A stretch of 64,000 nucleotides of DNA, taken from IMG/VR virus record IMGVR_UViG_3300045988_156369; one strand, 5' to 3'. Below the pieces are notes generated by a model that was not told the DNA's origin, searched no databases, and was given only the letters and a program-made list of their open reading frames with translations. Source of the DNA: a virus. Each line of letters begins with the position of its first letter. Within the stretch, counting starts at the first letter, position 1. This document shows positions 78 through 54,193 of this stretch, one piece after another. The translations under genes were made by a program, and so were the position numbers.

Positions 78-170
78 TGGTACTCCCACCCTGACTTGAA
101 CAGGGATTGCGCACTAATCTGGTGCTAGGCAGGCTATAAGGCCGCTTCTCTGCCATTGAGATATGGGAGC
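78..170 (-). tRNA. tRNA with a long variable arm and apparent anticodon UAU; identity uncertain
   Basis: Acceptor GCUCCCA/UGGGAGU, D arm UCUC-AAUGGCA-GAGA, T arm CCCUG-UUCAAGU-CAGGG, encoded CCA, 23-nt variable arm. The anticodon loop reads CUUAUAG with a C-C mismatch closing the stem. Confidence 0.55.
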
Positions 171-276
171 ATACTAAGGGGCTTCCCAGTGGAGCTTTCA
201 CACCACTTGAGCATTTTTCATTTCTGACTGAGGGATACCCCTACCCTCTCAGATCATCCGGGAGCGACCCGGCCAC

Positions 277-370
277 TGGCGGAGCAAGTGGGATTCGAAC
301 CCACGCGGCGGGATAAACCACCCTACGTCCTTAGCAGGGACGCCTCTTATACCAGCTTGAGTATTGCTCC
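277..370 (-). tRNA. tRNA-Ser(GCU)
   Basis: Acceptor GGAGCAA/UUGCUCC, anticodon stem CGUCC/GGACG with loop CUGCUAA, long variable arm, T arm GUGGG-UUCGAAU-CCCAC, encoded CCA. Confidence 0.88.
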
Positions 371-806
371 GTGTGAAAGGGCATCCCACCCTTGAGGTAC
401 CAGTGACGTGCTTAGCCGTCTCGCCATATGTCGATAGGTACTTACCGCTGCTTACCACTCGCCGCAGCCCGGAGGACTTTCCCATCTTGCCACCAGTTGG
501 AAAGGTGTTTGGAAGCCAACTGGAAGTTCCGCCGACGGTTTCATGCCGGGTGCTGCGTGTTAAGACTGCCGTAAAGACGGCTTTGAACCCGGCAAGGTGG
601 ACTGTTACCTGCCCGAAGGTGCAAACGGAATAGTTTTGAGGCAGTGTGCCGCTGCTCTGCCATTGCTTTAGCATCTGGGGGTTAGACCAGAATAAAGCGT
701 CCAGCGAGTTTATTTCACCCACTGATTTGACGGAGAGATAGCCCTCCGCGTACCCCAGACTTGACCGGCGCTGGGAACCATGACGCCCCGGTGTGAACCG
801 GAACGG

Positions 807-881
807 TGGAGCCAGGTGGGGGAGTCAGACCCACAACCTGCCGCTTACAAAACGGCTGCTCTGCCATTGAGCTAACCTGGC
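807..881 (-). tRNA. tRNA-Thr(UGU)
   Basis: Acceptor GCCAGGU/ACCUGGC, D arm GCUC-AAUGGCA-GAGC, anticodon stem GCCGU/GCGGC with loop UUUGUAA, encoded CCA. The T arm is non-canonical (GUGGG-UCUGACU-CCCCC). Confidence 0.65.
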
Positions 882-885
882 ATAG

Positions 886-1087
886 TAACAGAATAAATTC
901 ATGATGGAGACGACACCCCGAAATATGGTACATATATTTGTACTGGTGACGGGTACATGGATTCAAATTCAAACACCTGGATATGACCGAGGTGTGGAGC
1001 CGTTTGCTACCCGGTGCGGCCGCAGGTTGGCCGTGCCGGTGTGACGGGACTTGACGGTGTGAAACCAAAAATGAAGTTATTCTGTTA
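886..1087 (-). ncRNA. Structured RNA element, copy E (IR-closed, conserved hairpin), filling the tRNA-Gly/tRNA-Thr spacer
   Basis: 11-bp terminal inverted repeat (886-896 TAACAGAATAA, 1077-1087 TTATTCTGTTA). Hairpin 973-995 is ACACCU-C-GG-UCAUAU-CC-AGGUGU in minus sense, followed by UUGAAUUUGAA and CUCCAU. No ORF. Confidence 0.6.
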
Positions 1088-1162
1088 TGGAGAGGTGTAC
1101 CGGAGTTGAACCGGCGCTGCCTGCTTGGAAGGCAGGAGTACGAACCGTTATACGAACACCCC
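1088..1162 (-). tRNA. tRNA-Gly(UCC)
   Basis: Acceptor GGGGUGU/ACACCUC, D arm GUAU-AACGGUUC-GUAC, anticodon stem CCUGC/GCAGG with loop CUUCCAA, T arm GCCGG-UUCAACU-CCGGU, encoded CCA. Confidence 0.85.
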
Positions 1163-6182: not shown

Positions 6183-6566
6183 TTACCAGCCGCGGCGCTT
6201 TTTGCCGATTTGTTCTGCCTTATAGGTCAGAGCGCGATCATGCACGCCGCTGATACGGTCGAGATAGTTGGGGTTGACTTCTACCTTTTCATCCTCAAAG
6301 ACATGCTGCCACCAGATACGATGACCGTCAGCGTAATCAACATTGTGTTCCTGCATAAGAGTGTAGAATGTCTCTTTGCGATTGTTAAAACGATGTCCAC
6401 GCCACTTTTCATAGATGGCTTTCTCTTCCGGGGTGGGTTCTGAGATGGAGCGCTGGTAGGCACCGAGGGCATTAAAATCTTTAATATCATTGGATGTATA
6501 GCCGGATGCAGCGGCAGAACCGAACAGACCAGCGATACCGAGAATTAAACCAAAACCACCTAACAT
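6183..6566 (-). CDS. hypothetical protein with N-terminal TM segment (127 aa)
   Basis: ORF with AAGGAGG RBS at 6572-6580. Confidence 0.7.
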
Positions 6567-6589
6567 AGTTGTTACCTCCTTGGATTTTG

Positions 6590-7434
6590 AAAATTGAAAT
6601 TATTTGGAACGAAGACGGCAGCGCATGACTTGAATGGACTGGATGGTAATGTTCAATGGGCTTCTCACAAAATAGGCAATGGTGTTCCTGCATTTCAGAA
6701 ACAGCATTTTCAAGGCTCCCTTTTTGGTAGAGTGGGCCTTGCTGATACTGCCATTTCTGAATGTTAGGGTTGTCAAGCTGCATGAACGCAAATTTGTTGA
6801 CTTCAAGCACAACATCACTGATAGGAAGAAACTTCTGAATTTTCTTCACCAAGTTGATGTGTGTCTGTAGCAACTGATTTGCAGTAGGCGTAAGCCATCC
6901 TTCCGGTCTTGCACGATTGGTGAACTTTGCCTCTTTGTTTTTGATACCAATGCAAAGTACATCTTTCTCACAACCCGGAAGATGGCGCTTGATAACGCCA
7001 ATTTCTTTTGCACGTTTACTAACACTACCATTTTGAGCAGTGGTTTGCTTTACGCACTTCTTAGAAATAGTGCCGTTGGTTTTTGCTCTCCGCTGACGGC
7101 GGCAGCGTCTGCCGTTGGTGCGTCTTGCGCAGCGTGATTCCTTACGCTTTTTCATCAGCTTAGGGACTTCCTTATTGCGGGTCTCAAGATGCGCAGTAAA
7201 GACCGCCGCCCCGTCTGTTTTGACAACGGCAACGCCGATGTTGGTCCTACCAGGGTCGATACCCAAGTATAGGGGTTGAACTACATCATCAGTTTCATAA
7301 AGCAACTGGATAGTAAACGGTTTTGATTTTACGACTCGTGCTTTTCCATTCTTAAGGAGATGGCGCACATGCATACAGCGAGTCGTTGGCATCAAAGGTT
7401 TACCATCTTTGTTTAACACATATACAGTAGGCAT
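6590..7434 (-). pseudogene. iscB: 3'-truncated IscB (OMEGA RNA-guided nuclease) remnant
   Basis: [20 protein letters not shown] (PLMP domain), [14 protein letters not shown] (RuvC-I), Arg-rich bridge helix [17 protein letters not shown] (RuvC-II), start of [15 protein letters not shown]. Homology then stops, with about 200 aa missing (rest of HNH, RuvC-III, TID). The frame runs on into the next gene. Confidence 0.8.
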
Positions 7435-7657
7435 ATACGCTACCCTCCTTTTACTGTAAATCTCTCCTGCTGAAACAGGAGGTTGTGTTTCCCTTGGCTG
7501 GGTGTTTGCTGTGAGCGGTATTGTACGAGACAATGCCACTCGTGCGGAGCTATCAACTGGGAAAATCGATAGGCGCAACAAACATCCAAATGCCTGTGGT
7601 ATTTGTAAAAACAGATGGTTTTATTCAAACCACCTATTTTTGCAAATACCCTTGGAT
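7435..7657 (-). ncRNA. Candidate IscB omega-RNA region
   Basis: 223-nt ORF-free segment immediately 5' of the iscB remnant, where IscB omega-RNAs are encoded. Contains hairpins such as CUCCUG-UUUCAG-CAGGAG. The assignment is positional. Confidence 0.45.
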
Positions 7658-8641
7658 TTATTGGGTGAAATCATAGGCGGACTGGGCAAGGGGCAGGCAG
7701 TGAGCACGCAAAATCTGCCAGAGTTTGCAATCCGGTTTTGTGCGGGAGAGGAGTTGCAGGGCGCGATCCCTGGACATATCGCGGTGAGCAAGAGGGTAGT
7801 TTTGAGCCAGAAAGTTGCGATGGGATTCATTGTTGGTGAAAAGAAGCTCGGTACCGGGGTGAGTTTCCGTTAAGTAGAAGTAGGGGCCGGTAACTTGCAG
7901 GCGGATGCCAGCGGACGGAGCACAGTAGAGATCGAGGGGAGAATCATCCTTTGCTAAGGTGTAGCCCTTGCCGAAATAAGAGAGCCAGCGGTGGACGTTG
8001 GGACCCCAGGGGCAGACGGTGGGCGGCGGCATGAAATCATTGCCTTCCCAAACGTTTGGGGTAAAAGTTTCATCATAGGGGTAAGGACAATCCTGTTCCG
8101 GGGTGAGAGGCGGGGTGTAGATTAGAGGCGGATAGGCGGGCGTGGTGGTGCAGATAGCTTCCGGCGGAACGGCTGCACCTTGGGGCAGAGGAGTGAAATC
8201 ACAGGCTTCGGTTGGATAGGAATAGCCGGACGAAGAATGAATGTTTTTGGTTTTGACCTGGCGATAGACGGTACGGAGCTTACCATCCTGATAGAGGTTG
8301 CCAAAGATAAAATCGTTCTGACTGACAAAGTAAAGAGTGCTGCGATCGCCATTGAAACAGAAAACAGCAGCGGCAGTTTGGTCGGCCAGGTTGGGACGGG
8401 GGATATCCGGGGCGGCGTGATCAAAATAATCCTGGAAGCTTGTCCAGTTTTTGAAATAGAACGGGTAGTTGGGATTGGGAGAAAAATCAGAACAAATGCC
8501 CTGATAGGAACCGTAGTGAAGATGGGCGCAATCCGAAACAAGATTGACAGTGATGTTATTGGCACGCTTACATTTGATGCCATGATAAGCGCAGTGACAG
8601 CAGTGAAGCTCTTCATCGTAAAGTGGATTTGTGGCGGACAT
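7658..8641 (-). CDS. hypothetical Cys-rich protein (327 aa)
   Basis: Long ORF with RBS. Confidence 0.7.
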   Translation of the reverse strand: MSATNPLYDEELHCCHCAYHGIKCKRANNITVNLVSDCAHLHYGSYQGICSDFSPNPNYPFYFKNWTSFQDYFDHAAPDIPRPNLADQTAAAVFCFNGDRSTLYFVSQNDFIFGNLYQDGKLRTVYRQVKTKNIHSSSGYSYPTEACDFTPLPQGAAVPPEAICTTTPAYPPLIYTPPLTPEQDCPYPYDETFTPNVWEGNDFMPPPTVCPWGPNVHRWLSYFGKGYTLAKDDSPLDLYCAPSAGIRLQVTGPYFYLTETHPGTELLFTNNESHRNFLAQNYPLAHRDMSRDRALQLLSRTKPDCKLWQILRAHCLPLAQSAYDFTQ

Positions 8642-8745
8642 GGAAAAACCCCCTTAATCTCAATTTGGCGATAATAAATACGATAAGAAGCGTTTTCGCT
8701 ACAAATAAAAAACATTCCATCTGCTCATTCGTTTCCTTTCTGACT

Positions 8746-9165
8746 TCAAAGGTCAAACCACCAAGGAGTGGAACGCTCTTCCCCTCCCTGTTCTACTTTT
8801 TGCCAAGGCGTTTCGGATTTGCCGTGAACCTGCTCGTCAAGGCGTTTGCTGCATTCATCGCACAATGAACCATAGGGAATATCCCATAAGGGTGTTGTGA
8901 TAAGCTGACCACAGCAATCGCATCTCTTTCCTTCTTCTACCTCCGCAACCTCTTTCATAAAGTTGACGGTCTCTGCATCACCAGTAAAAACCAGTGGTGT
9001 CAGTTCTGCTTCTGTGCGAACGACACGAAGCAAAGTAAAAGGAGAAGAAAAGTCCCAAGGAATATCGACAGAACGTAAAGCATCGTAAATGCCGTTTCCT
9101 TTTGAATTAGAAACAGAGCGAAGTTGCGAATAAACTTCATCCTCGGTCAAATCCACTTTTGCCAT
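8746..9165 (-). CDS. hypothetical protein with CxxC..CxxC zinc ribbon (139 aa)
   Basis: CDCCGQ...CDEC. GAAAGGAG RBS. Confidence 0.7.
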   Translation of the reverse strand: MAKVDLTEDEVYSQLRSVSNSKGNGIYDALRSVDIPWDFSSPFTLLRVVRTEAELTPLVFTGDAETVNFMKEVAEVEEGKRCDCCGQLITTPLWDIPYGSLCDECSKRLDEQVHGKSETPWQKVEQGGEERSTPWWFDL

Positions 9166-9937: not shown

Positions 9938-11074
9938 TTAGACGGCGTAGTGGATATCGCGGGAGCGGGTGCGGCGGAAGGCGAGAGCGGCGGGAGTGGT
10001 GGATTTGATCTGGGCGATGGCATCATAGCAAGCCTTTTCATCCGGGTCAGAAAGTTCATCATCGGAGATGTGGCGGTATTCAAATGTGAGGTCCTTGCCT
10101 TCAACAAAGGGAGTGCCGGAGGTTTTATCAAACTGAACGGAATCATTGTTGTAGGTGACTTCGAAGATAAAATCGCCGTTTTTGTTAAAGAAGCGAACGT
10201 ATTCTTCCGAGGAGGGATCGAAGAGATCACGGCGGACATTGCTGGCGGTATAGACAACGCCGTTTGCGAATTTCATGGTGATGTTATAGTGCTCAGCGTT
10301 GAGGTTGACAATGTTCAGATCCTTGATGGCTTCCGTGAAAGGCAGGCCGGTGTTGAGTTCAAAGGCGATGGAACGCAGGCAGTCATAATTGAGGTCAACG
10401 CGACCGGCAAAACCGATGACGGCATCGATCTGGTCATAATATTCCGGCTTGAGCTTATCCTGCATGTAGGTGCGGATTTCATCTGCGGTGGGGTAATCGA
10501 AGCGGAAGTGGTAGTGGAAGCGGCCGGGGCGGTTGACGAGGAAATCATTGAGACCTTTGAGATCATTGCAGGTGACGACAAAGAGGCGTTTGCCGTTGGA
10601 GGTGCCATCGAACAGGGAGAGCATGGTGGACTGAGGATCGGTTTTATCATTATCGGAGGGATGGGCGAAAGTTTTATCGAATTCATCAAAGAGGATCATG
10701 ACTTCCTGGTCGATAGATTCGAGGTAGGAGGCGATGCCGGGGATGGCTTCATCGACAATAAGGACGGGCAAGCCGGCAGAGATGGCGCGGGTGGAGAGCA
10801 AGCGAGCGAACATGGACTTGCCGATACCTTTTGCGCCGCTGAGGATGACGCCAAGAGAACGCGGGAAAGCGTTGTAGGACGCTATGACTTTTTCGACCTT
10901 GGATTCATGCGGGCCATAGACAGTTTCGTTGACCTGCATATTGGGGCGGGATTCCAGATAAAAGCCGCTGAGCTTGGAGAAACGGACGCAGTAGGTGGCG
11001 GCGGGCAGGGAATCAAAGGTGCGAAGGGAATCATCGTAGATCTGGTACTTGATGCCGGTGTTAACGATTTTCAT
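9938..11074 (-). CDS. AAA+ family ATPase
   Basis: Walker A GAKGIGKS, Walker B ILFDEFDK, followed by a sensor-like region. Confidence 0.75.
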   Translation of the reverse strand: MKIVNTGIKYQIYDDSLRTFDSLPAATYCVRFSKLSGFYLESRPNMQVNETVYGPHESKVEKVIASYNAFPRSLGVILSGAKGIGKSMFARLLSTRAISAGLPVLIVDEAIPGIASYLESIDQEVMILFDEFDKTFAHPSDNDKTDPQSTMLSLFDGTSNGKRLFVVTCNDLKGLNDFLVNRPGRFHYHFRFDYPTADEIRTYMQDKLKPEYYDQIDAVIGFAGRVDLNYDCLRSIAFELNTGLPFTEAIKDLNIVNLNAEHYNITMKFANGVVYTASNVRRDLFDPSSEEYVRFFNKNGDFIFEVTYNNDSVQFDKTSGTPFVEGKDLTFEYRHISDDELSDPDEKACYDAIAQIKSTTPAALAFRRTRSRDIHYAV

Positions 11075-16899: not shown

Positions 16900-17055
16900 T
16901 TATGCTTTGACGGTGTTTTTGCGGGTGAGTTCGAGGACGGTGCAGAACGGGGCGAACCAGCCGCCGCCCGAATAGAAGGCGTGCGGGGTGGAGGGCTGGC
17001 ATTCATAGCAGACAGTGCCGTTGATGATAGCGAGGGTGTAGGTAAGTTTGGTCAT
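16900..17055 (-). CDS. small hypothetical protein (51 aa, below the ORF-track cutoff)
   Basis: ATG at 17055 preceded by GAAAGGATC. Translates as MTKLTYTLAIINGTVCYECQ...TVKA with stop TAA at 16900-16902. Confidence 0.45.
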   Translation of the reverse strand: MTKLTYTLAIINGTVCYECQPSTPHAFYSGGGWFAPFCTVLELTRKNTVKA

Positions 17056-17090
17056 AATGGTTGATCCTTTCTGATGGTAAAAATAGATTC

Positions 17091-17366
17091 AAAATAAAAC
17101 AGGGAACAAGCTGGTGGGAAACGGTCTTCTTGAGTGGATCGATGATTGGACTTGTGAAGAACGTATGAACGTAGTTTTGGTTTTGTGACAAGTCTTTTGA
17201 TGTCAACTCGAAACCGTATGGAGGCGCGTCGTCTGCAGACGACGCCCGTGATCCAGGAGGGGGAGGAGGTAACAAATTCGAACTCTTGGATATAACCGAA
17301 GAGTGAAAGCATGAACTGAAATATAATCAGCAAATGATTCTATACCTTGTTAGGCTGTTTTATTTT
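17091..17366 (-). ncRNA. Structured RNA element, copy A
   Basis: 12-bp perfect terminal inverted repeat (17091-17102, 17355-17366). Hairpin 17282-17304 is ACUCUU-C-GG-UUAUAU-CC-AAGAGU, then UCGAAUUUGUUACC, the C-rich run CCUCCUCCCCCUCC, and CUCCAU. Confidence 0.6.
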
Positions 17367-17432
17367 TAAGGTTGATAGTTGGGGCACGGCGGGGTGTGGT
17401 CGGCAAAATCGGCCATGGAAGCGCCGTGGTAT

Positions 17433-17792
17433 TTATGCTTGGGGATTTGCCAGTTGAGAGGTAGCTCCTTTCAATAAATCATCAAAGGAGAGAGTGGAGG
17501 CGCAGACAACTGTGGGACAAGATTGTTCAAACATGGGGAAAGTAAAAACCGCTGTGCTACCACCGAGATAATAAAAATCAAAACTCGGATGTAAAAAGGG
17601 GTCTATGCGAACAATAGGGAGTGTCTGTCCGCAATATTGTTTCATAGGCTCTGTGAACAAAGCTTGTGGGGTTTTAATGGCACCATATCTGTTCAAACCA
17701 AATTCGGACTCCATATCATCCCACTGGCGAATGGTAACTTTATCACCAATGTTGTAGGTAGGATAGTTATTGGGGTTAGGGGCAGTATTCAT
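17433..17792 (-). CDS. SFDDLL-tail small protein paralog 7
   Basis: GDKVTIRQWDDMESEFG; tail LSFDDLLKGATSQLANPQA. Confidence 0.78.
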   Translation of the reverse strand: MNTAPNPNNYPTYNIGDKVTIRQWDDMESEFGLNRYGAIKTPQALFTEPMKQYCGQTLPIVRIDPFLHPSFDFYYLGGSTAVFTFPMFEQSCPTVVCASTLSFDDLLKGATSQLANPQA

Positions 17793-17797
17793 AGTTA

Positions 17798-18187
17798 TTA
17801 GACTCCTTGAAGTAAATCATCGAAGGTAATAGAAGGGGTGGAAATACGGTTTTTGGGTTCAGGGGGGAGGGTTGCAGGGACGGGGAGGAGCATGGCGGAG
17901 GTGAAAAACCAACCGTGAGGAGAATCATCAACATTAAAGCCTGCATGAGTACACGATAAATAATCGAGAATATAAATGGGTTCATCAGGAAGATCTTTAT
18001 CATGAACGATTTTGACAACAATAAACTCTTTGCCACAGTAAGGTTTCATGTCAAGAATAAAAGAAAGTTTATTAGGATGAACAGTGATATCACCGTAAGG
18101 ATTGGAGCCGAATTCTTCCATCATATCATCCCACTGGCGGACGATGACGCGATCACCAACGTGGTAGGTGGGGTAGGGGGATGGCAT
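17798..18187 (-). CDS. SFDDLL-tail small protein paralog 8
   Basis: GDRVIVRQWDDMMEEFG; tail ITFDDLLQGV. Confidence 0.78.
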   Translation of the reverse strand: MPSPYPTYHVGDRVIVRQWDDMMEEFGSNPYGDITVHPNKLSFILDMKPYCGKEFIVVKIVHDKDLPDEPIYILDYLSCTHAGFNVDDSPHGWFFTSAMLLPVPATLPPEPKNRISTPSITFDDLLQGV

Positions 18188-18556
18188 TCAAATGCCTCCT
18201 TTCAGGAAATCGTCAAAGGAAACAGGGGAAATGGGAACCGGGGTGCCATAGGGGTGGAATTCATTGGGGGTGAAAAGAGCGGTGTTCCAAGAGAATCTGG
18301 CAGCGGCGGAGGGAGCGACAGCAGTGGAGAGATCGTAGGGTTTTAAGAAGTAAAAGTCAGAAGTGCCAAATTTACGATCAATTTGCATGATGCTGCCACA
18401 AAGAGAACGGCGTTTAGGGGACATATAATCTGCGATACCATTAGAAAGGGGATCGAGAAACAGCGCACAGCCAGCATCATTTTTGGGAAGAGCGTCAAAC
18501 TCTGCGGCAGAAATGATTTGAACGAGGGTGCCAACGGGGTAGGTGGGGAAATTCAT
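18188..18556 (-). CDS. SFDDLL-tail small protein paralog 9
   Basis: Tail VSFDDFLKGGI. Confidence 0.75.
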   Translation of the reverse strand: MNFPTYPVGTLVQIISAAEFDALPKNDAGCALFLDPLSNGIADYMSPKRRSLCGSIMQIDRKFGTSDFYFLKPYDLSTAVAPSAAARFSWNTALFTPNEFHPYGTPVPISPVSFDDFLKGGI

Positions 18557-18927
18557 TGCGCGGCTCCTTTCAACAGATCATCTAATGACATGGAAGGAAC
18601 CGGAGGCGGAGAAACGACACTCAGCAGATCCATAAGAGGGTGAAATTCAGCGGCGGAGAAGAACCAGTCATCCCAGGGGAAAACGGTTTTATCTTTAGCG
18701 AAGAAAGGAGTGAGTTTATATAGGTTTCCTACTACACCGTTTTCGGAAATGCTAGTAATGACAGCCGAACAACCGCAAATAGGAAGTTTATCTCTGTGAA
18801 AAGAATCGTACAAGCCGTAACTGGACCGAGCAAGAATAAAATTGCCGCGGTCATCCGTAGGACAGGAATAAACTTTTTCTTCGGAGATGATTTGGACAAC
18901 ATCGCCAACTTTATAGGTAGGATTCAT
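18553..18927 (-). CDS. SFDDLL-tail small protein paralog 10
   Basis: ATG at 18927 with GAAAGGAAG RBS. Tail MSLDDLLKGAAQ. Confidence 0.72.
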   Translation of the reverse strand: MNPTYKVGDVVQIISEEKVYSCPTDDRGNFILARSSYGLYDSFHRDKLPICGCSAVITSISENGVVGNLYKLTPFFAKDKTVFPWDDWFFSAAEFHPLMDLLSVVSPPPVPSMSLDDLLKGAAQ

Positions 18928-18952
18928 GGTAGGCTTCCTTTCTGTGATGGGG

Positions 18953-19249
18953 TTAGAGGTTTGCGATAAGAGAATCAAAGCTGAGATACGGAGCGGGGAT
19001 AGTGCGGGAGATCATGCTGGGCTGGATGATGTAGTAGGAATCGTTGTGAGGAAAGTAGAGGCGGAGAAGGCCGGATTTGCCAAGGATGGCAACGATCTTG
19101 CCCTGCTTGCTGAGGATAGGCTCATAGGGAAGAGAATCGGTGAGGGTGAAAGTGGTGCCGTAATCATACTGGAGGGAGCAGAGCATTTCCGGGGCGGAGA
19201 CGATCTCGACCCAGGTTCCAGGTTCATAGCCGGGGAGGAATGGGGTCAT
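18953..19249 (-). CDS. SFDDLL-tail small protein paralog 11
   Basis: Tail LSFDSLIANL. Confidence 0.7.
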   Translation of the reverse strand: MTPFLPGYEPGTWVEIVSAPEMLCSLQYDYGTTFTLTDSLPYEPILSKQGKIVAILGKSGLLRLYFPHNDSYYIIQPSMISRTIPAPYLSFDSLIANL

Positions 19250-19255
19250 GAGGAA

Positions 19256-19519
19256 TCACCTACCTTGAGAAATAAGTTCATCAAAAGAAATGGGAGAAGT
19301 GGGAAGAGGAGCGGGGGTGACGGCTTCGGGGGTATCGTCATAAGTAAGGGCAGAATGGGTGGCGACAAATGTTTTGTTATTCATACTGGGGACAATAACG
19401 GTGACATAAACGCCAGTATCAGATTGGACAAAGCCGTGGAGGGTACGATGGGCTGCGCCATGTAGCGTTATGATTTTGAAATAGACGGGAGTGCCGGGTT
19501 GAATGTAATAAGGGTCCAT
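19256..19519 (-). CDS. SFDDLL-tail small protein paralog 12
   Basis: ATG at 19519 after AGGTGA. Tail ISFDELISQGR. Confidence 0.7.
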   Translation of the reverse strand: MDPYYIQPGTPVYFKIITLHGAAHRTLHGFVQSDTGVYVTVIVPSMNNKTFVATHSALTYDDTPEAVTPAPLPTSPISFDELISQGR

Positions 19520-19537
19520 AAGAATCACCTGTATGAA

Positions 19538-19828
19538 TTAGAGGACGGAAATAATTTCATCAAAAGAAACGGTAGACGGGGGCACGGTGTTGGGGGACTT
19601 ATAGGCGAATGGATCGTTGGGGTCCTGGATTTCGGTGATATATTCATGGGGGACGTGGAAGGTGCGGGAATCATCGGTCCAGACGGTGACGCGGTTGCCG
19701 TTATCTTCTTGGACGGTGCCGGAGAGATAGATGATTTGAAATTTAGTTTTCAGGGGATTGTGATCCTGGCTGATAACTGGTCCTACGGTATAGAATTTGA
19801 CCCGTGAGCCGGGGGAGATAAGTTTCAT
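19538..19828 (-). CDS. SFDDLL-tail small protein paralog 13
   Basis: ATG at 19828 after AGGTAA. Tail VSFDEIISVL. Its C-terminal half is similar to the upstream frameshifted copy. Confidence 0.7.
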   Translation of the reverse strand: MKLISPGSRVKFYTVGPVISQDHNPLKTKFQIIYLSGTVQEDNGNRVTVWTDDSRTFHVPHEYITEIQDPNDPFAYKSPNTVPPSTVSFDEIISVL

Positions 19829-19833
19829 AAAAA

Positions 19834-20014
19834 TTACCTGCCTTGAAGGAGAGCGTCGAAAGAGATGGTTGGGGAAGATACGGGGGGTAGAGGACTTATA
19901 AGCGAGGGGATCTTTGGCATCCTGGATTTCGGTAATAACTTCATAGGGGACGTTGTAGCTGTGGGAATCGATCAAGATGGTGACGTAGTTGCCGTTATCT
20001 TGGATAAGTTTCAT
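19834..20014 (-). pseudogene. SFDDLL-tail paralog 14, frameshifted at a C6 run (sense strand)
   Basis: The N-terminal frame (MKLIQDNGNYVTILIDSHSYNVPYEVITEIQDAKDPLAYKSS) and the tail frame (PVSSPTISFDALLQGR*, stop 19834-19836) differ by one nt at the homopolymer 19882-19887. Confidence 0.6.
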
Positions 20015-20230
20015 AAAAATCACCTGAATTCATTTGAAGGGGAGGGTTCCGGGGTATTACAAGGCGCTCCAACCATTGGAATGGCCGGAGGCCCAGCGAA
20101 AGGAAAGTAAAACCATGACCGTGCGTTTACCAGGCGCACGAGCAGGGGGCGCAACGAGCTGCTAAGAAAGGAAGAAACAGCTGAAGCGCCTGGGAATGCC
20201 CCGGAACCATGGGGCGGAATGGAGAAAAAC

Positions 20231-20568
20231 AAAAATCAATTTGTGAAAGCTGATGAGAGGCAGCCACCGGACCCAGATGCTGGCCATGGCTGTTATTCTG
20301 AGTTTGATTGGTGCTTCCACCGGTGTTGCTTACTTTTTTTGTTGAAGAATAGGGCATTAGCCCATCCTTTCTGATGCGCCGCGAGGCTAGTTTCCGTGTG
20401 TATGGAAGTTCGAGACTGATGCGGTGCTTACTGCGACGCGATTGGATCACCTCCAGGGGGGTGGGACAGGGGAACAAATTCAAACCCTCGGATATGACCG
20501 GAGGGTGTTTGGCTTTGACTTGAACAGAAATCAAAACGAAACTTTACCTTTGAAACAAATTGATTTTT
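20231..20568 (-). ncRNA. Structured RNA element, copy B (starts 4 nt after the RT stop codon)
   Basis: 14-bp perfect terminal inverted repeat (20231-20244, 20555-20568). Hairpin 20481-20511 is CAAACACCCUC-C-GG-UCAUAU-CC-GAGGGUUUG, then AAUUUGUUCCCC, a C-rich run, and UUCCAU. Confidence 0.6.
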
Positions 20569-20572
20569 TGGA

Positions 20573-21763
20573 TTATGCGGTTACGCTGGGCGGGGCGAGA
20601 TCGGCCTTGATGCAGGATTCAAGGTCAAGGCCATATTTGGCGTTATACTTTTGGATGATATATTTGGTGGTATCGGGCTGGACATCCTTGAACCAGGTAA
20701 TGTTGCCCTGGAAGGACTGAAGGTCTTCATCCGGCCACTTTTTGCCCTTTTGTTTATCGCGGAAGTAGGTATCAATGGTGGCTTTGAAGATTTTATTTTT
20801 GCGGTAGCCGACTGTGATTTGGTTATCCTTATTGAGCATGACGCCAAGAATCCAGTTGCGGCCGGCGCGGGAGTGGAACTGGGTTTTCTTTTCATTGAGG
20901 GTGAAGGGGGCGTTCATTTGGGAGAGAAGCTGGACGATGAGGCGCTCGACGGCGTGATAATTGAAGATGACTTTGCAGGAGACGATGATATCATCGGCGT
21001 AGCGGGTGTAGCAGAGGCGGTCAGTGATGGGGGTTCCGTCCGGGTTATGCTTGCCGGATTCAAAATGGTTGACGGCCTTGGCGAAGGCGTGGTCAAAGGG
21101 GATCATCATGATGTTGGTGATGAGCGGGGAGATGGGGGTGCCCTGCGGCAATGCGCCGTTAAGGAAGCAGAGGTCTAGGGCTTTGAGCAACTCCGCGTGG
21201 CCGGTAGGGCTGGCGAGGATGAGGTTGAAAGGATAAATGAGTTCAAACTGGGAGAGAACAAACGCCGGCGTGGTGGAAGGGAAGAAGCCATGGAAATCAA
21301 AGTGGGCGTACCACCAGGCATTGAACTTTTGGTGACGTTTGGCGGCGGAGAGGACGCTGCGGTCCTCGACATAGGCGAAGGCGCAGGTGTGGTGGTCGGC
21401 AAACATCCAGGACTGGAAGAGAGTTTTGAGTTCCTTGAGGGCTTTCATTAAGTCGGAGTTGGGGGCATCGATCCAGCGGAGGCCGCCGGAAGCTTTGGGG
21501 ATGGAAAAATGGTTGTACAGGCTGGAACGGGGAGTGGTGAGGCGAAGGGATTCATACTGCTGATTGAACGCCTGGAGCTGGAAAATCATTTGTTCCACCT
21601 TGGTGATGCGCATGATGCGGGGAGGAACTTTATTGCAGATGACGGTACGGGTAGCACCGTGGCCGCCGGTGGAAAGGTTGGCGAGGTTGAAATCCCCGCG
21701 AAGGAGTTCTTCAAACGTCATTTCCCGGAAACGTTCCGGGCAGTTATAAGTGATGTAAACCAT
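20573..21763 (-). CDS. stand-alone reverse transcriptase (retron/Abi/UG-like)
   Basis: RT motifs IPKASGGLRWIDAP, HFDFHGFFPS, LPQGTPISPLITN, YTRYADDIIV, NEKKTQF, ILGVML. AAGGAG RBS. No RNase H, endonuclease or maturase extension visible. Confidence 0.88.
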   Translation of the reverse strand: MVYITYNCPERFREMTFEELLRGDFNLANLSTGGHGATRTVICNKVPPRIMRITKVEQMIFQLQAFNQQYESLRLTTPRSSLYNHFSIPKASGGLRWIDAPNSDLMKALKELKTLFQSWMFADHHTCAFAYVEDRSVLSAAKRHQKFNAWWYAHFDFHGFFPSTTPAFVLSQFELIYPFNLILASPTGHAELLKALDLCFLNGALPQGTPISPLITNIMMIPFDHAFAKAVNHFESGKHNPDGTPITDRLCYTRYADDIIVSCKVIFNYHAVERLIVQLLSQMNAPFTLNEKKTQFHSRAGRNWILGVMLNKDNQITVGYRKNKIFKATIDTYFRDKQKGKKWPDEDLQSFQGNITWFKDVQPDTTKYIIQKYNAKYGLDLESCIKADLAPPSVTA

Positions 21764-21789
21764 GTGAGTGCTCCTTATGTGAGGGTTAT

Positions 21790-22124
21790 GTTTGTGTTCT
21801 GATGGAGATGTGGGCTGCCGCGAGTTTCCCGTTCGTCGGGCCGGGAGGCGTATCGTTGCTCTGGTTGATGCGACCGTAGCCTAATGTGGATTCGACCTTT
21901 GCGATACCTGCACCTTTGCTGGCCGAAATGTGTGGATTTTTCTTAGAGTTTTTCTACCAATCGGTGCTTGACACAAGGCTCGGATACTGCTATGGTGGGG
22001 TCTTGAGTCAGCCCCGGGCTGGCCAGGATCATGGAGGAGGGTGGGTCGGGGTAACAAATTCGTGCTCTTGGATATGACCGAAGAGCACGAAGCGAAAAAA
22101 AAGCTTACAGTATACAACACAAAC
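21790..22124 (-). ncRNA. Structured RNA element, copy C (ends 26 nt upstream of the RT start codon)
   Basis: 9-bp terminal inverted repeat (21790-21798, 22116-22124). Hairpin 22059-22091 is UUCGUGCUCUU-C-GG-UCAUAU-CC-AAGAGCACGAA, then UUUGUUACCCC, the C-rich run CCCACCCUCCUCCAU. Confidence 0.55.
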
Positions 22125-22154
22125 GAAATTTAATGAAACGCTAAGACGACAGGG

Positions 22155-22838
22155 TTACAGACCGAGGAATGCGGATTCACCCTGGAGATTGAAGGGGGCA
22201 GAGAGGCCGGTGTGGATCAGCTCGCCTTTTTTGATGAAGTTTTGGAAGTTGGTGACGGTATAGCAGGCGGCAACGCGAACCGTGGGGGCAACACCGAGGG
22301 TAGTGCCGCAGGCCGAAACAGGGACCTGGGCGGTGGCTTCGGCGTGAGTAAAGTTCATTGTGGCGCGGAATTCCTTGACCTGTTTGGGGTCCGACCAATC
22401 GGCAGCGTAGAGCTGGGCGTCAAAGAGGGCGGTGCGGACATCAAACATGGCTTTAATGAAGGTGTTAAAGCGGTTGGCATCCACGATTTTCTGGCGGATC
22501 TCGATATTATCTACGGCGAGAAAAACGTAACCGGAGAGGGGCTGGCCGTTCCAGCCGGAGGGTTCCAGACGGATATCATTTTTGGCTTCCGGGTTGATGG
22601 CACAGAGGATATCGCGGAGGGCTTCCACTTTGGGCTGGCCGACCTGGGGATCAAAGAACATCTGGTTGACGATGTTTTTCTTTTCCACCGTATCAAAATC
22701 ATAAAGGGTGAAGTTGGTCAGGCCATAGCGGGCAAGAAGCTCCGCGATGGTGGAGCCGACCGAACCGCAGCCAATGATGTGGATGCGGCCTTTGACATCA
22801 TGCGGGGAGAAGACATCCAGGCTTTTGGCAAGATTCAT
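22155..22838 (-). CDS. ThiF/MoeB/E1-like adenylyltransferase (PRTRC ThiF-like)
   Basis: Rossmann loop HIIGCGSVGSTIAELLARYG followed by LYDFDTVEKKNIVNQ, as in ThiF/E1 enzymes. 4-nt overlap with the JAB gene. Confidence 0.78.
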   Translation of the reverse strand: MNLAKSLDVFSPHDVKGRIHIIGCGSVGSTIAELLARYGLTNFTLYDFDTVEKKNIVNQMFFDPQVGQPKVEALRDILCAINPEAKNDIRLEPSGWNGQPLSGYVFLAVDNIEIRQKIVDANRFNTFIKAMFDVRTALFDAQLYAADWSDPKQVKEFRATMNFTHAEATAQVPVSACGTTLGVAPTVRVAACYTVTNFQNFIKKGELIHTGLSAPFNLQGESAFLGL

Positions 22839-23599
22839 AAGGCACCTCCGTTGGTGAGATAATCGTAATAGGTGGGGTAGTGGTCGTAATAATTGCCGTC
22901 ATCGTCCGTCCAACAGCGGGCGGCGTTATCCCAGAAGACGTGGGGTGCGGTGCCACCGGTGGGCTTGACGGGAGGGTTCGTTTTGGAATAGATGGGCGGA
23001 GCCTTGGTGACAAGGGACTGAGCGGTGGCGGCAAAATCGGAGAGAGTATCGGTGTAGGTAACAGAGATATCGTCTTTATCGTAGATTTTGTTGGCGGCGT
23101 AGTCATACAGGCGGGCGGTGAACTCGCCACGCTTGTTCCAGATCATGAAGAGGTAGAAATCATTGCCCTTGAGCTTATTGACAATTTTGGACTCGTTTTC
23201 GTCATCAACGCCGGAAGGGGAAGTGGACATGTTGACGTGGCTGTGGGCCTGGTAGCGGATGTTGTTGAAGATTTCATCGGGCTGGGAGACCAGCCAGTCG
23301 TTGTATTTATCCTGGTCGGTTTCGACGGTGACACCAGTGACCTGCTGGGGGTAGACGAGGATATCATAGATTTCATACTCGGTGGGGGAGAGCTGGCGCA
23401 TGAGGCCGTGCCAGGCGACCTCGGAAGTGAAATCATCAATGAGGCGGGACTGTTTGGCCCAGGCATCGGCGGTAAAATTGATGTTGATTTTATCTTTTGC
23501 CTTAGTTTTTGTGAGCTTGACAGCGCCGGTGAGGAGCTGCTGACGATAGAGTTCGATGGCGGCATCCAGAGCGGTCTGATCAATACGGATAACTTGCAT
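22835..23599 (-). CDS. JAB/MPN (JAMM) metalloprotease-like protein
   Basis: Complete JAMM signature: upstream Glu (SEVAWHG) and HSHVNMSTSPSGVDD, which fits HxH-x7-S-xx-D. Confidence 0.78.
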   Translation of the reverse strand: MQVIRIDQTALDAAIELYRQQLLTGAVKLTKTKAKDKININFTADAWAKQSRLIDDFTSEVAWHGLMRQLSPTEYEIYDILVYPQQVTGVTVETDQDKYNDWLVSQPDEIFNNIRYQAHSHVNMSTSPSGVDDENESKIVNKLKGNDFYLFMIWNKRGEFTARLYDYAANKIYDKDDISVTYTDTLSDFAATAQSLVTKAPPIYSKTNPPVKPTGGTAPHVFWDNAARCWTDDDGNYYDHYPTYYDYLTNGGAL

Positions 23600-23601
23600 G
23601 G

Positions 23602-24942
23602 TTATTCTCCTTCCTTAACGGAATCGTTTGCGGATTTGAGCTGTTCAATGGCCTGCTTGGGGGTGATGGATTCACCGGCGGCGGTAAGGATGACGGGGAT
23701 ATCATTGTGATAGGCGTCGGCGAAATCATCAAAGAAATATTTGGTGGAGATTGTTTCGACGAGGTTCATGCTGCTGGCGCTCTGCTGACAGATAGCAATG
23801 GCGGCAATAAAATCTCGGCGATCCTCGGCATCCTCCAGCATGGGTTCATAGTTACCGAGGCAGGAGTGATGATTGATGTGAGGGTTGGGAACAGCCTGAA
23901 TGACGTTCATATTGATCGCATCGGACATAGCTGTGACATGGCAGTTGTAATTAAGCCTATAGGTGGCAGCGAGTTTGATTTTGAAGATGTGGTCAATGAA
24001 CACAGCCCGGAAAAGGATACGGACATCGTGTTCTTCTTCATCGGTAAGATCCTGATAGGGGCGGTCACTGTTGAAGATAAAGGTTTCGACATCATCCGGG
24101 TCATAGTTGGAGAGGAATGTGGTGATGACGAGGAGAAGCGATCCATCGACAGCACCAACGGAGATACCCTTTTGAGTGTGGAGATAATCCTTGAGTTCCG
24201 TGATAAAGGTGGATTCATCTTTGGAGTCAAGGCCGGTCAGCTCACAGTTGGTGTTGGTGATGTTGGTAAAAATTTCCGAGATACGGGCGCGGGTTTCTTT
24301 CAGATCACGGTAAAGACTTTCAATTGACCGCTTGAGATCCGCTTTACGGCGGTCAATGGTACCTTTGAAGAGGGATTCGATCGCTTTATCTACGGCCCTG
24401 GAGGTCAGATCGGTTTTGTTATAAAGGGCTTCCGCCATCCGGGCGAGGGCTTCCGAGCCAGTATCCGGGGTGGAGAGGGCGCGAAGGTAAGCGAGTTCAT
24501 CGGAGGTGAGGGGGTGGTCCTTGAAAAGCCAGGGCAGCAGGCGGGGCATGGCCGAGGCGACACGGTTGTAAAAAACACTGCTGTAGAGGCCGCCGTCGCG
24601 CTGGAACTGGACGATGGTGATACGGGCGGCTGCATCCTGATAAACTTTGTATTTATCAGAGAGATAAGCGCCGATATCCTTAACTTCCTGGATGGAATCG
24701 GGGATGGAGGCTTTATCGGTGACGAAGAACAAACGGGATTCATTCGGGTTAGTGGAAGGCTGGAGGCCGGAATCATCGCCAAGGATGGCAAGGGTATTGC
24801 CTGCGGTGAGGCGGGAGTAGACCGTGCAGGCCAGAACTTTGGTGAAAATTGTTTTGAAAGAGGAGCGGCAGGGGGTGTTGTCCTGCCATGTGATGGTGGG
24901 CGACATGTAATTGAGAATATCGGTGTAATTGGGGAGTGGCAT
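23602..24942 (-). CDS. hypothetical protein of the E1/JAB cassette (446 aa)
   Basis: Long ORF abutting the JAB gene. Near the C-terminus, NPHINHHSCLG faintly resembles the HPN..C active-site stretch of E2/UBC folds. That resemblance is a weak inference only. Confidence 0.65.
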   Translation of the reverse strand: MPLPNYTDILNYMSPTITWQDNTPCRSSFKTIFTKVLACTVYSRLTAGNTLAILGDDSGLQPSTNPNESRLFFVTDKASIPDSIQEVKDIGAYLSDKYKVYQDAAARITIVQFQRDGGLYSSVFYNRVASAMPRLLPWLFKDHPLTSDELAYLRALSTPDTGSEALARMAEALYNKTDLTSRAVDKAIESLFKGTIDRRKADLKRSIESLYRDLKETRARISEIFTNITNTNCELTGLDSKDESTFITELKDYLHTQKGISVGAVDGSLLLVITTFLSNYDPDDVETFIFNSDRPYQDLTDEEEHDVRILFRAVFIDHIFKIKLAATYRLNYNCHVTAMSDAINMNVIQAVPNPHINHHSCLGNYEPMLEDAEDRRDFIAAIAICQQSASSMNLVETISTKYFFDDFADAYHNDIPVILTAAGESITPKQAIEQLKSANDSVKEGE

Positions 24943-26120: not shown

Positions 26121-26149
26121 CCAGACGGGGCAGGGCGGGGAACAAATTA
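26121..26149 (-). repeat. Partial (hairpin-less) copy of the RNA-element linear block
   Basis: Minus sense AAUUUGUUCCCCGCCCUGCCCCGUCUGG. Compare copy B, AAUUUGUUCCCCUGUCCCACCCCCCUGG. Confidence 0.4.
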
Positions 26150-54014: not shown

Positions 54015-54193
54015 TAAAAGCAAACGTAAGTATGTACTGCGGGCTATCGCAGGAATTCACGACTGTGGAGTGTACAAGAACTTGTGAGTAGCGTATCTGT
54101 TTACGGATTGCAAAAGCATACACAGTGAAGCAGTAAGAAGTATCCGCAAGGACTTCAATTTCTCGATGTGTTTGAGTATATTTCAACACATTT
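54015..54193 (+). ncRNA. Candidate TnpB omega/reRNA scaffold region
   Basis: ORF-free 180 nt between the tnpB stop codon and the right end of the insertion, where TnpB guide-RNA scaffolds are encoded. The assignment is positional. Confidence 0.4.

What the first reader, a model, noticed from the sequence alone, without database searches (positions are those of the whole stretch)
17091..22124. Family of four IR-closed structured RNA elements with a covarying hairpin and an invariant apical loop
**Copies.** All four lie in ORF-free gaps, in the same sense as the leftward genes:
- E, 886-1087
- A, 17091-17366
- B, 20231-20568
- C, 21790-22124

**Closing helix.** Each copy is bracketed by a perfect inverted repeat whose sequence differs between copies, which amounts to a covarying closing helix:
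- E: TAACAGAATAA / TTATTCTGTTA, 11 bp
- A: AAAATAAAACAG / CTGTTTTATTTT, 12 bp
- B: AAAAATCAATTTGT / ACAAATTGATTTTT, 14 bp
- C: GTTTGTGTT / AACACAAAC, 9 bp

**Internal hairpin.** A hairpin sits 24-81 nt inside the 5' arm (minus sense). Its stem covaries: ACACCU/AGGUGU, ACUCUU/AAGAGU, CAAACACCCUC/GAGGGUUUG, UUCGUGCUCUU/AAGAGCACGAA. Its apical module C-GG-UCAUAU-CC is invariant, except UUAUAU in copy A.

**Downstream blocks.** The hairpin is followed by GAAUUUG. A, B and C then have a C-rich run complementary to Shine-Dalgarno sequences (CCUCCUCCCCCUCC-like), which is not evident in E. All four have a YUCCAU block.

**Fragment.** A hairpin-less fragment of the linear part is at 26121-26149.

I do not recognise this architecture as a named RNA family.
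Basis: seen in the sequence. Interest (0 to 1): 0.85.

Follow-up and report, generated by a model that had tools for sequence, protein, structure and literature searches.

The report
Phage retron-like RNAs with hypervariable templates
It is unusual that this gut phage has four of them for one enzyme, and that their interiors differ greatly between otherwise near-identical phages.

Summary
There are exactly four copies on the minus strand. Each has a closing inverted repeat, a covarying hairpin with an invariant CGGUYAUAUCC module, GAAUUUG eight bases further on, and a conserved 3' block.

With that gene in view:
- The "closing helix" reads as a retron a1/a2 stem.
- The hairpin reads as an msr recognition stem-loop.
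- A conserved G directly after the helix sits where a retron's branching G sits.

RT relatives at 39-85% identity carry the same layout with unrelated sequences: two to five IR-closed elements of about 300 nt flanking the RT, each genome with its own shared scaffold.

Three features are new:
- One RT has four ncRNAs, and one of them lies exactly between two tRNAs.
- The presumed template cassette is unstructured and non-coding.
- The cassette is hypervariable and mosaic: about 39% pairwise divergence against 3.7% in the flanks across about 30 phages.

It is not DGR-type: there is no adenine bias and no TR/VR pair. Rfam has no match and the literature held here describes nothing like it.

Verdict: a new variant of a known kind. 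No transcript or cDNA data exist, so RT use of these RNAs is inferred. Confidence is about 0.65.

The parts
21790..22124 (-). Element C: the RT-proximal ncRNA, lying between the ThiF-like gene and the RT. 5' arm 22116-22124, junction G 22115, conserved hairpin 22059-22091, GAAUUUG 22055-22061, C-rich tract to about 22036, hypervariable cassette about 21817-22035, CAUCAG 21799-21804, 3' arm 21790-21798.
20231..20568 (-). Element B, starting 5 nt after the RT stop codon. 5' arm 20555-20568, hairpin motif 20490-20500, GAAUUUG 20475-20481, variable cassette about 20253-20455, conserved 3' block with CAUCAG, 3' arm 20231-20244.
17091..17366 (-). Element A, downstream of the small-paralog array. 5' arm 17355-17366 plus inner helix AACAAG/CUUGUU, hairpin motif 17288-17298 (UUAUAU loop), GAAUUUG 17273-17279, variable cassette, 3' arm 17091-17102.
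886..1087 (-). Element E: the short copy (202 nt), lying exactly between tRNA-Gly and tRNA-Thr. Arms 1077-1087 and 886-896, hairpin motif 979-989, GAAUUUG 964-970. It has no C-rich run.
20573..21763 (-). Retron-clade reverse transcriptase, 396 aa. YADD is present; NAxxH reads AAKRH and VTG reads ILG.
   Evidence: Pfam RVT_1 2.8e-14; PADLOC RT_II-A 1.5e-44; NCBIfam retron_St85_RT 1.9e-49, below its cutoff; every PDB sequence hit that names its molecule is a retron RT
1088..1162 (-). tRNA-Gly(tcc). Its 3' end abuts the 5' arm of element E.
807..881 (-). tRNA-Thr(tgt). It starts 5 nt after the 3' arm of element E.
22155..22838 (-). ThiF/E1-like adenylyltransferase directly upstream of element C. 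It keeps this position in RT relatives down to 37% identity.
22835..23599 (-). JAB-like protein (weak family hits). It is conserved in the same position in distant relatives.
23602..24942 (-). 446-aa protein of unknown family; the first gene of the conserved X-JAB-ThiF-RT module.

Best explanation
The four elements are retron-type non-coding RNAs (msr-msd-like) that serve the retron-clade RT encoded between C and B.

**Proposed mechanism**
1. Each RNA folds so that its 5' and 3' ends pair (the a1/a2 stem).
2. The 5' scaffold of about 90 nt acts as the msr part. It holds a variable stem-loop, then the hairpin with a covarying stem and an invariant CGGUYAUAUCC module, then GAAUUUGUUACC and a C-rich run. 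The hairpin is the RT's recognition handle.
3. The G directly after the closing helix is the priming (branching) residue.
4. The conserved C(A/C)YCAG directly before the 3' strand of the helix is the first template.
5. The RT copies the 3' block and the variable cassette into single-stranded DNA of roughly 90-250 nt, stopping near the C-rich tract.
6. E would be released from a tRNA precursor by tRNA-processing enzymes. C, B and A would come from read-through or local transcripts.

**Shown here**
- The RT's clade.
- The helix and hairpin covariation.
- The conserved junction.
- Recurrence of the layout next to diverged RTs.
- The cassette's lack of structure, lack of coding signal and hypervariability.

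**Inferred, not shown**
- That the RNAs are made.
- That the RT uses them.
- The priming chemistry.
- The role of the cDNA. My best guess is a phage-borne function in conflict with the host or with rival phages, probably working with the conserved E1-like/JAB-like neighbours.
For: **RT identity**
- All best family hits are retron RTs, far above group II intron (1.9e-15) or DRT2 (4.8e-10) RTs.
- All 13 PDB hits are RNA-directed DNA polymerases, and every one that names its molecule is a retron RT.

**Position**
- C lies immediately 5' of the RT on the same strand and B immediately 3' of it.

**Closing helices**
- They are non-random.
- Their sequences differ between copies and stay fixed within each copy class across 24-32 variants.
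- They change by compensation in the 62% group.

**Hairpin**
- It covaries strongly.

**Recurrence next to diverged RTs, with unrelated sequences**
- L041, 39%.
- L040, 44%.
- L296, 51%, with one element upstream and one downstream.
- L297, 47%, with three in tandem.
- L295/L298, 83-85%.
- Within each genome the copies share their own scaffold. The scaffold therefore tracks the RT clade, as expected for a recognition handle.

**Junction**
- A G follows the 5' arm and (U/C/A)AG precedes the 3' arm in nearly all elements.
- This matches the retron priming geometry described in PMC8632793.

**Other**
- One relative encodes RNase H right after the RT.
- The sharp edges of the variable region coincide with the predicted template segment.
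Against: - There is no transcript, cDNA or branch evidence.
- The cassette is not a long hairpin: z is about 0 against shuffles and there is no consensus fold. The review calls the msd hairpin a common and indispensable retron feature.
- The RT lacks the canonical VTG and NAxxH signatures and scores below NCBIfam's curated retron cutoffs.
- For A, B and E the junction G is reached only after extending the helix across an internal loop, so it is less clean than in C.
- No known retron effector lies nearby.
- A natural variant (L134) has lost the RT yet keeps elements. Either the RT is dispensable, or the other RNAs have RT-independent roles.
- Sigma-70-type promoter and terminator scans give no help with transcript ends.
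Confidence: 0.65

Rival explanations
1. RT-independent structured small RNAs. The terminal helix simply stabilises the RNA, the invariant hairpin loop binds some other phage or host protein (or is a processing signal), and the single-stranded variable interior acts as a regulator or sponge. Proximity to the RT is a matter of shared regulation, not use as a template.
For: - E sits in a tRNA operon about 20 kb from the RT.
- A natural RT-deletion variant keeps A and a chimeric element.
- The cassette lacks the msd hairpin.
- The C-rich tract could pair with Shine-Dalgarno sequences.
Against: - IR-closed elements flank the RT on both sides in lineages down to 39% RT identity, with the scaffold changing together with the RT.
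- The conserved G/AG junction has no obvious role in a plain sRNA.
- A roughly 220-nt interior that is hypervariable and matches nothing in the window is unlike known base-pairing regulators, whose seeds are short and conserved.
Confidence: 0.15
2. DNA-level elements. The conserved scaffolds would be recombination or regulatory sites that bracket exchangeable DNA cassettes, and the inverted repeats would act in DNA (cruciforms or protein sites), not in RNA.
For: - Cassettes are mosaic and move between backgrounds.
- The scaffolds do recombine: in L134, C and B recombined and deleted the RT.
Against: - The IR sequences differ in every copy, so they are not shared protein-binding sites. What is kept is complementarity, through compensatory change.
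- The hairpin stem covaries while its loop stays invariant, which is typical of an RNA or single-strand fold.
- All copies share the strand of the surrounding genes.
- No recombinase gene is associated with the window's module. A resolvase was seen only in L297.
Confidence: 0.08
3. A diversity-generating retroelement (DGR) or a close analogue, in which the variable stretches are VRs rewritten from a template repeat by adenine-specific mutagenesis.
For: A phage RT lies next to sharply bounded hypervariable segments.
Against: - Variability does not depend on the consensus base: A 0.23, C 0.26, G 0.25, T 0.33.
- The segments are non-coding.
- There is no second (TR-like) copy of any cassette in the window.
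- The RT groups with retron RTs.
- No Avd-like gene was seen.
Confidence: 0.03
4. Small hypervariable protein-coding genes. Mechanical ORFs of 79-135 aa overlap A, B and C.
For: Long stop-free runs occur in many variants.
Against: - No frame stays open across variants.
- Variability by codon phase is flat (0.23/0.27/0.285), against 0.0085/0.0062/0.053 in the RT gene.
- Stop-poor frames are expected from the T-poor composition.
Confidence: 0.02

Closest known systems
Bacterial retrons (msr-msd ncRNA plus retron RT, e.g. Ec86/Eco1, Ec78/Eco7, St85/Sen2)
   Same: - The RT belongs to the retron clade.
- The ncRNA lies immediately upstream on the same strand.
- The 5' and 3' ends are complementary.
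- Short stem-loops sit in the 5' part.
- A G sits at the end of the terminal helix, opposite the 3' end of the presumed template.
   Different: - There are four ncRNA genes for one RT (two to five in relatives), placed upstream, downstream and at a distance.
- The template part is unstructured instead of a long hairpin.
- The template part is long (up to about 250 nt) and hypervariable.
- The VTG and NAxxH motifs are altered.
- The element sits on a large (about 90-150 kb) gut phage genome.
- It travels with E1-like and JAB-like genes, not with a known retron effector.
Diversity-generating retroelements of phages (e.g. Bordetella phage BPP-1)
   Same: A phage-encoded RT lies next to a sharply bounded hypervariable segment. 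In both systems an RNA-templated cDNA is the plausible source of change.
   Different: - There is no TR/VR pair.
- There is no adenine-specific pattern.
- The variable segment is non-coding.
- The RT belongs to a different clade.
- No Avd is present.
ncRNA-templated defence RTs (DRT2, DRT3, DRT9, DRT10)
   Same: A dedicated structured ncRNA next to an RT supplies the template.
   Different: - The RT scores far better against retron models than against DRT2 or DRT3.
- Those systems use conserved templates, whereas here the template region is the most variable part.
- No stop-free repeat-unit logic is apparent.
tRNA-flanked non-coding RNAs released by RNase P/RNase Z
   Same: Element E is bounded within 1-5 nt by two tRNA genes on the same strand, so tRNA processing would give it defined ends.
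   Different: This applies only to E (and to the distal copy in the 62% group). It is inferred from position alone.

Membership tests
Retron | The RT belongs to the retron clade of prokaryotic RTs | tested here: met
   - The best hits in PADLOC are all retron RT types (RT_II-A 1.5e-44).
- NCBIfam retron_St85_RT 1.9e-49 is the top hit, but 168 bits is below its 235-bit cutoff.
- Every PDB sequence hit that names its molecule is a retron RT.
- So membership holds at clade level, in no described type.
Retron | 'VTG' signature in RT motif 7 (present in most retrons, PMC8632793) | tested here: not met
   In the alignment to retron RTs the position reads ILG. NAxxH reads AAKRH. YADD is present.
Retron | ncRNA gene adjacent to the RT and on the same strand | tested here: met
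   - C ends 26 nt before the RT start codon.
- The same holds in relatives L034, L041, L296 and L298.
Retron | [quoted passage not shown] | tested here: met
   - Arms of 9-14 bp. E, A and B are each 0/400 by shuffling; C is 21/400.
- A compensatory change occurs in the 62% group.
- Unrelated but complementary arms occur in distant relatives.
Retron | msr part with short stem-loops recognised by the RT | tested here: met
   - The folds show two stem-loops.
- The second has a covarying stem and an invariant loop.
- Recognition by the RT is inferred only from the scaffold changing together with the RT clade.
Retron | Conserved branching G at the end of the terminal helix, used as a 2'-OH primer | tested here: inconclusive
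   - A G follows the helix in all elements examined.
- In A, B and E this requires an extended helix.
- The priming chemistry cannot be tested here.
Retron | [quoted passage not shown] | tested here: not met
   - Cassette z-scores against dinucleotide shuffles average 0.13 (C), -0.36 (B) and 0.32 (A), with none below -2.
- RNAalifold predicts no pairs in the cassette.
Retron | Production of branched msDNA | not testable with these tools
   This needs nucleic-acid extraction from infected or expressing cells.
Retron | Associated effector forming a tripartite system | tested here: inconclusive
   - No known retron effector was found.
- Conserved neighbours are a ThiF/E1-like protein, a JAB-like protein and an unknown 446-aa protein.
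- No retron-ThiF/JAB link appears in the literature held here.
Diversity-generating retroelement | TR/VR pair with adenine-specific differences in a protein-coding target | tested here: not met
   - There is no second copy in the 64-kb window.
- There is no adenine bias.
- The variable region is non-coding.
Any Rfam family (including HEARO, ROOL, GOLLD and group II intron) | Covariance-model match | tested here: not met
   There is no hit on the elements at gathering threshold or at E<=10 on 16900-22400.

The most novel reading that the evidence does not exclude
This may be a natural 'write-back' retron. The RT's single-stranded cDNA carries the variable cassette between two conserved ends: the 3' block on one side and the C-rich/GAAUUUGUUACC tract on the other. 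Those ends could act as homology arms, so the cDNA would recombine into the phage's own locus or into that of a co-infecting relative.

This would explain three observations:
- Cassettes diverge roughly ten times faster than their flanks.
- The variable zone has sharp edges that match the predicted template.
- Cassettes are mosaic and shared across diverged backgrounds.

It would be a non-DGR, non-coding, self-diversifying retroelement, and a natural counterpart of retron recombineering.
Probability: 0.15. Interest if true: 0.9.

Novelty: new variant of a known kind. Interest (0 to 1): 0.75.

Why it matters
- Retrons are known as bacterial anti-phage systems with one ncRNA per RT and a hairpin-shaped template.
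- This module is retron-type but carried by an abundant family of large gut phages. The 98% RT cluster alone has 1600 member sequences, and there are more than 3000 relatives at E<=1e-20.
- It supplies several RNAs to one RT, and its long, unstructured templates are the fastest-changing part of the genome.
- If the RT does copy them, retron biology extends to the phage side of the conflict.
- It also links a retron RT to E1-like and JAB-like proteins, and gives a natural case of diversifying pressure acting on a retron template.
- On the practical side, a retron that naturally tolerates roughly 250-nt unstructured templates of nearly any sequence is what in-cell single-stranded DNA production for genome editing needs.

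Tried and rejected
- **Rfam:** no family matches at gathering or permissive thresholds.
- **DGR:** no adenine bias and no TR-like copy or target of any cassette in the window.
- **Coding:** no conserved open frame, no codon periodicity. The long stop-free runs are explained by composition.
- **Conserved fold in the cassette:** none by RNAalifold, and no excess stability. The perfect palindrome in the window's copy A is broken in the L284 variant.
- **Cassettes of one genome pairing with or resembling each other:** same-genome scores equal cross-genome scores.
- **Promoter and terminator scans:** at background level.
- **Hypervariability as a general property of all relatives:** not seen in the 37% group's non-coding stretch.
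- **Whole-genome motif scan:** almost all of the 120 hits are chance, since their stems do not pair. Only L284, a 141.6-kb contig binned with a Lachnospiraceae MAG, is a true copy.
- **The 'fragment' at 26121-26149:** not significant.
- **Neighbouring ORFs:** Pfam and PHROGs scans gave no replication or recombination context.
- **Literature:** searches for phage retrons with multiple or hypervariable ncRNAs, or for a retron-ThiF/JAB link, found nothing relevant.

Full report

Yes.
- The motif CGGTYATATCC occurs four times in 64 kb, always on the minus strand, against 0.06 expected.
- A covariance model of the 58-nt core (hairpin, GAAUUUG, C-rich tract), run with filters off, finds exactly these four at 68-76 bits. 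The next hit scores 10.5 bits.
- The quoted inverted repeats are there.
- In shuffles of each intergenic gap, perfect repeats of the observed length and spacing never arise for E (11 bp), A (12 bp) or B (14 bp): 0/400 each. For C (9 bp) they arise in 21/400, so C's repeat needs outside support. It gets that support in section 3.
- Each whole element folds with the closing helix, a first stem-loop and the conserved hairpin. The z-score is -4.3 to -5.0 for A, B and E, and -1.4 for C.
- Across eight element types the hairpin is 98.4% paired, and five of its eight pairs change on both sides. No shuffle in 500 reaches the observed score, and the signal collapses when partners are slid.
- The 'fragment' at 26121-26149 is not significant.

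**2.

- The ORF between C and B (20573-21763, minus strand) is a reverse transcriptase (Pfam RVT_1).
- Its best matches are all retron RTs: PADLOC RT_II-A 1.5e-44 and NCBIfam retron_St85_RT 1.9e-49, though the latter is below that model's cutoff. Group II intron and DRT2 models score far lower.
- Every PDB sequence match that names its molecule is a retron RT: Ec78, Ec83, Ec67, Ec86, Kva2.
- YADD is kept. The retron signatures VTG and NAxxH read ILG and AAKRH.
- C ends 26 nt before the RT start and B begins 5 nt after its stop.
- E lies exactly between tRNA-Gly (1088-1162) and tRNA-Thr (807-881) on the same strand.

**3. Comparative evidence**

RT relatives from viral contigs fall into graded groups: 96-99%, 62%, 44%, 39% and 37%. 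Further ones from assemblies are at 83-85%, 51% and 47%.
- The 62% and 83-85% groups keep the same core both upstream and downstream of the RT.
- In the 62% group, C's arms change from GTTTGTGTT/AACACAAAC to GTTTGTGAT/ATCACAAAC, and the hairpin stem changes with compensation.
- More distant relatives have lost all sequence similarity but keep the design:
  - L041 has a 298-nt element upstream and a 301-nt element downstream of the RT.
  - L040 has a 311-nt element downstream, a related upstream copy and the start of a third.
  - L296 has 331-nt and 369-nt elements on either side.
  - L297 has three in tandem.
- Within each genome the copies share their own 5' scaffold and then diverge. For example, L296's pair has CUUUU-GAUGUUAUU-AAAAG and CAUCU-GAUGAUAUU-AGAUG.
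- The scaffold therefore changes together with the RT, which is the pattern expected of a recognition handle.
- At the junction, a G follows the 5' arm and (U/C/A)AG precedes the 3' arm in nearly every element. In A, B and E the same G is reached after an inner extension of the helix.
- The review PMC8632793 describes retron ncRNAs as having complementary 5' and 3' ends, short msr stem-loops, a conserved branching G used as a 2'-OH primer, and an RT that starts just downstream of msd. The elements fit all of this.
- One relative also encodes RNase H directly after the RT.

**4. The unexpected part**

Across 31 phages the flanking genes are 95-99% identical. Inside C, column identity falls to 0.56-0.60, and inside B to 0.75-0.82, with sharp edges. 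There are 29 distinct C variants among those 31 phages.

All three long copies have the same plan:
- a conserved 5' scaffold of about 85-95 nt;
- a variable cassette;
- a conserved 3' block ending in C(A/C)YCAG.

Properties of the variation:
- It is not adenine-specific and not codon-periodic. Cassette columns vary by 23-33%, against 5.3% at RT third-codon positions.
- No reading frame survives across variants.
- RNAalifold predicts no pairs in the cassette, and cassettes are no more stable than dinucleotide shuffles.
- Mean pairwise divergence is 38.9% (C) and 26.4% (B), against 3.7% in the flanks.
- Phages that differ by 0.1-0.2% in the flanks differ by 1.4-5% in C and by up to 24% in B.
- L004 and L016 share cassettes on flanks that are 3.5% diverged.
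- The alignment shows allele classes and mosaics, and the 62% group has two unrelated C cassettes between identical flanks.

So cassettes are exchanged between genomes and diverge much faster than the rest of the genome. This is a property of the window's lineage and not of all relatives.

**5. A natural deletion**

In L134, C's 5' half is joined to B's cassette and 3' arm at the shared GAAUUUGUUACC/C-rich tract. The C cassette and the RT gene are gone.
- The scaffolds therefore recombine.
- The RT can be lost, at least in a sequenced genome.
- The shared tract is too short for an assembly collapse to be a likely cause, but I cannot exclude one.

**6. Interpretation**

The best reading is that these are retron-type ncRNAs for the adjacent RT, with the cassette as template. 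It departs from classical retrons in five ways:
- several RNAs per RT;
- an unstructured and hypervariable template;
- altered RT signature motifs;
- carriage on a large phage;
- conserved E1-like, JAB-like and unknown neighbours in place of a known effector.

What the cDNA does is unknown. The speculative but testable idea is that it recombines back into phage genomes through its conserved ends. That would account for the rate, the sharp edges and the mosaicism together. Engineered retron recombineering shows that such a reaction is feasible when a single-strand annealing protein is present (PMC8632793).

Rivals, in descending order, are RT-independent sRNAs, DNA-level cassettes, a DGR, and small hypervariable genes. 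The first two cannot be excluded without expression data.

**7. Novelty**

- Rfam has no model.
- Four literature searches found no description of a phage retron-type RT with multiple or hypervariable ncRNAs, or of a retron linked to ThiF/JAB.
- The RT clade is large and gut-associated.
- The only host hint is one contig binned with a Lachnospiraceae MAG, plus Clostridia and Oscillospiraceae labels on relatives.

I rate it a new variant of a known kind.

Noticed in passing
window 22155-24942 (minus strand); also L044 3147-5930, L295-L298: A three-gene set (unknown protein of about 446 aa, JAB-like protein, ThiF/E1-like adenylyltransferase) sits directly upstream of the RT in every relative examined, down to 37% RT identity. 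This suggests a functional link between ubiquitin-like-conjugation enzymes and a retron-type RT. JAB is 38% identical between lineages (E=7e-38); the large protein matches only weakly (E=2e-4).
   Followed up: partly
window 17433-20023 (minus strand): There is an array of seven small paralogous proteins (88-129 aa), plus a truncated eighth copy. They have an SH3-like N-terminal half (weak Pfam hints) and a shared C-terminal tail...(S/T)(F/L)D(D/E)(L/F)(L/I)KG(G/A). The array lies between elements B and A. Its length differs between near-identical phages: copy A lies 1.2-4.6 kb from B in different loci. These proteins could be substrates or partners of the E1-like and JAB-like proteins.
   Followed up: partly
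L134 about 8400-8951 (contig IMGVR_UViG_3300045988_160459): This is a natural recombinant between elements C and B that deletes the C cassette and the whole RT gene. It leaves a chimeric element whose arms no longer pair.
   Followed up: yes
L297 5161-5610: In a relative with 47% RT identity, an RNase H gene (PF00075) overlaps the RT stop codon and is followed by three tandem IR-closed elements. A resolvase gene lies about 2 kb further on.
   Followed up: partly
window 54062-54136 (plus strand): There is a full-length RAGATH-18 RNA match (72.5 bits against a gathering score of 44.9, E=1.3e-12).
   Followed up: no
window 6487-7581 (minus strand): This 364-aa protein has a strong RRXRR domain match (PF14239, 6.5e-51), the family that includes IscB/IsrB-type RNA-guided nucleases. 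Rfam found no HEARO/omega-RNA match nearby.
   Followed up: no
window 20024-20230 (minus strand): A second non-coding stretch of about 207 nt lies between element B and the first paralog. It is well conserved across phages (0.94-0.96), unlike the cassettes, and contains an internal imperfect 24-nt inverted repeat. Its function is unknown.
   Followed up: no
window 20459-20472 (minus strand), start of B's cassette: The window's copy B reads CUGGAGGUGAUCCA just after its C-rich run. From my own knowledge, this is complementary to the conserved 3' end of 16S rRNA. Only some B variants in other phages keep it, so it may be chance.
   Followed up: no
L044 7610-8932 and its relatives (37% RT group): The 440-aa ORF after the RT's downstream non-coding stretch is highly variable in its C-terminal two-thirds (column identity 0.4-0.7), while the RT module is 96-99% identical.
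   Followed up: no
window 78-1162 (minus strand): A phage tRNA cluster (Ile-tat, Ser-gct, Thr-tgt, Gly-tcc) hosts element E. In the 62% group the equivalent copy also follows a tRNA-Thr, within a six-tRNA cluster (L088).
   Followed up: partly
window 9938-11074 (minus strand): A 378-aa AAA/STAND-type NTPase (AAA 1.5e-10; nSTAND3 3.8e-06, just under its cutoff).
   Followed up: no
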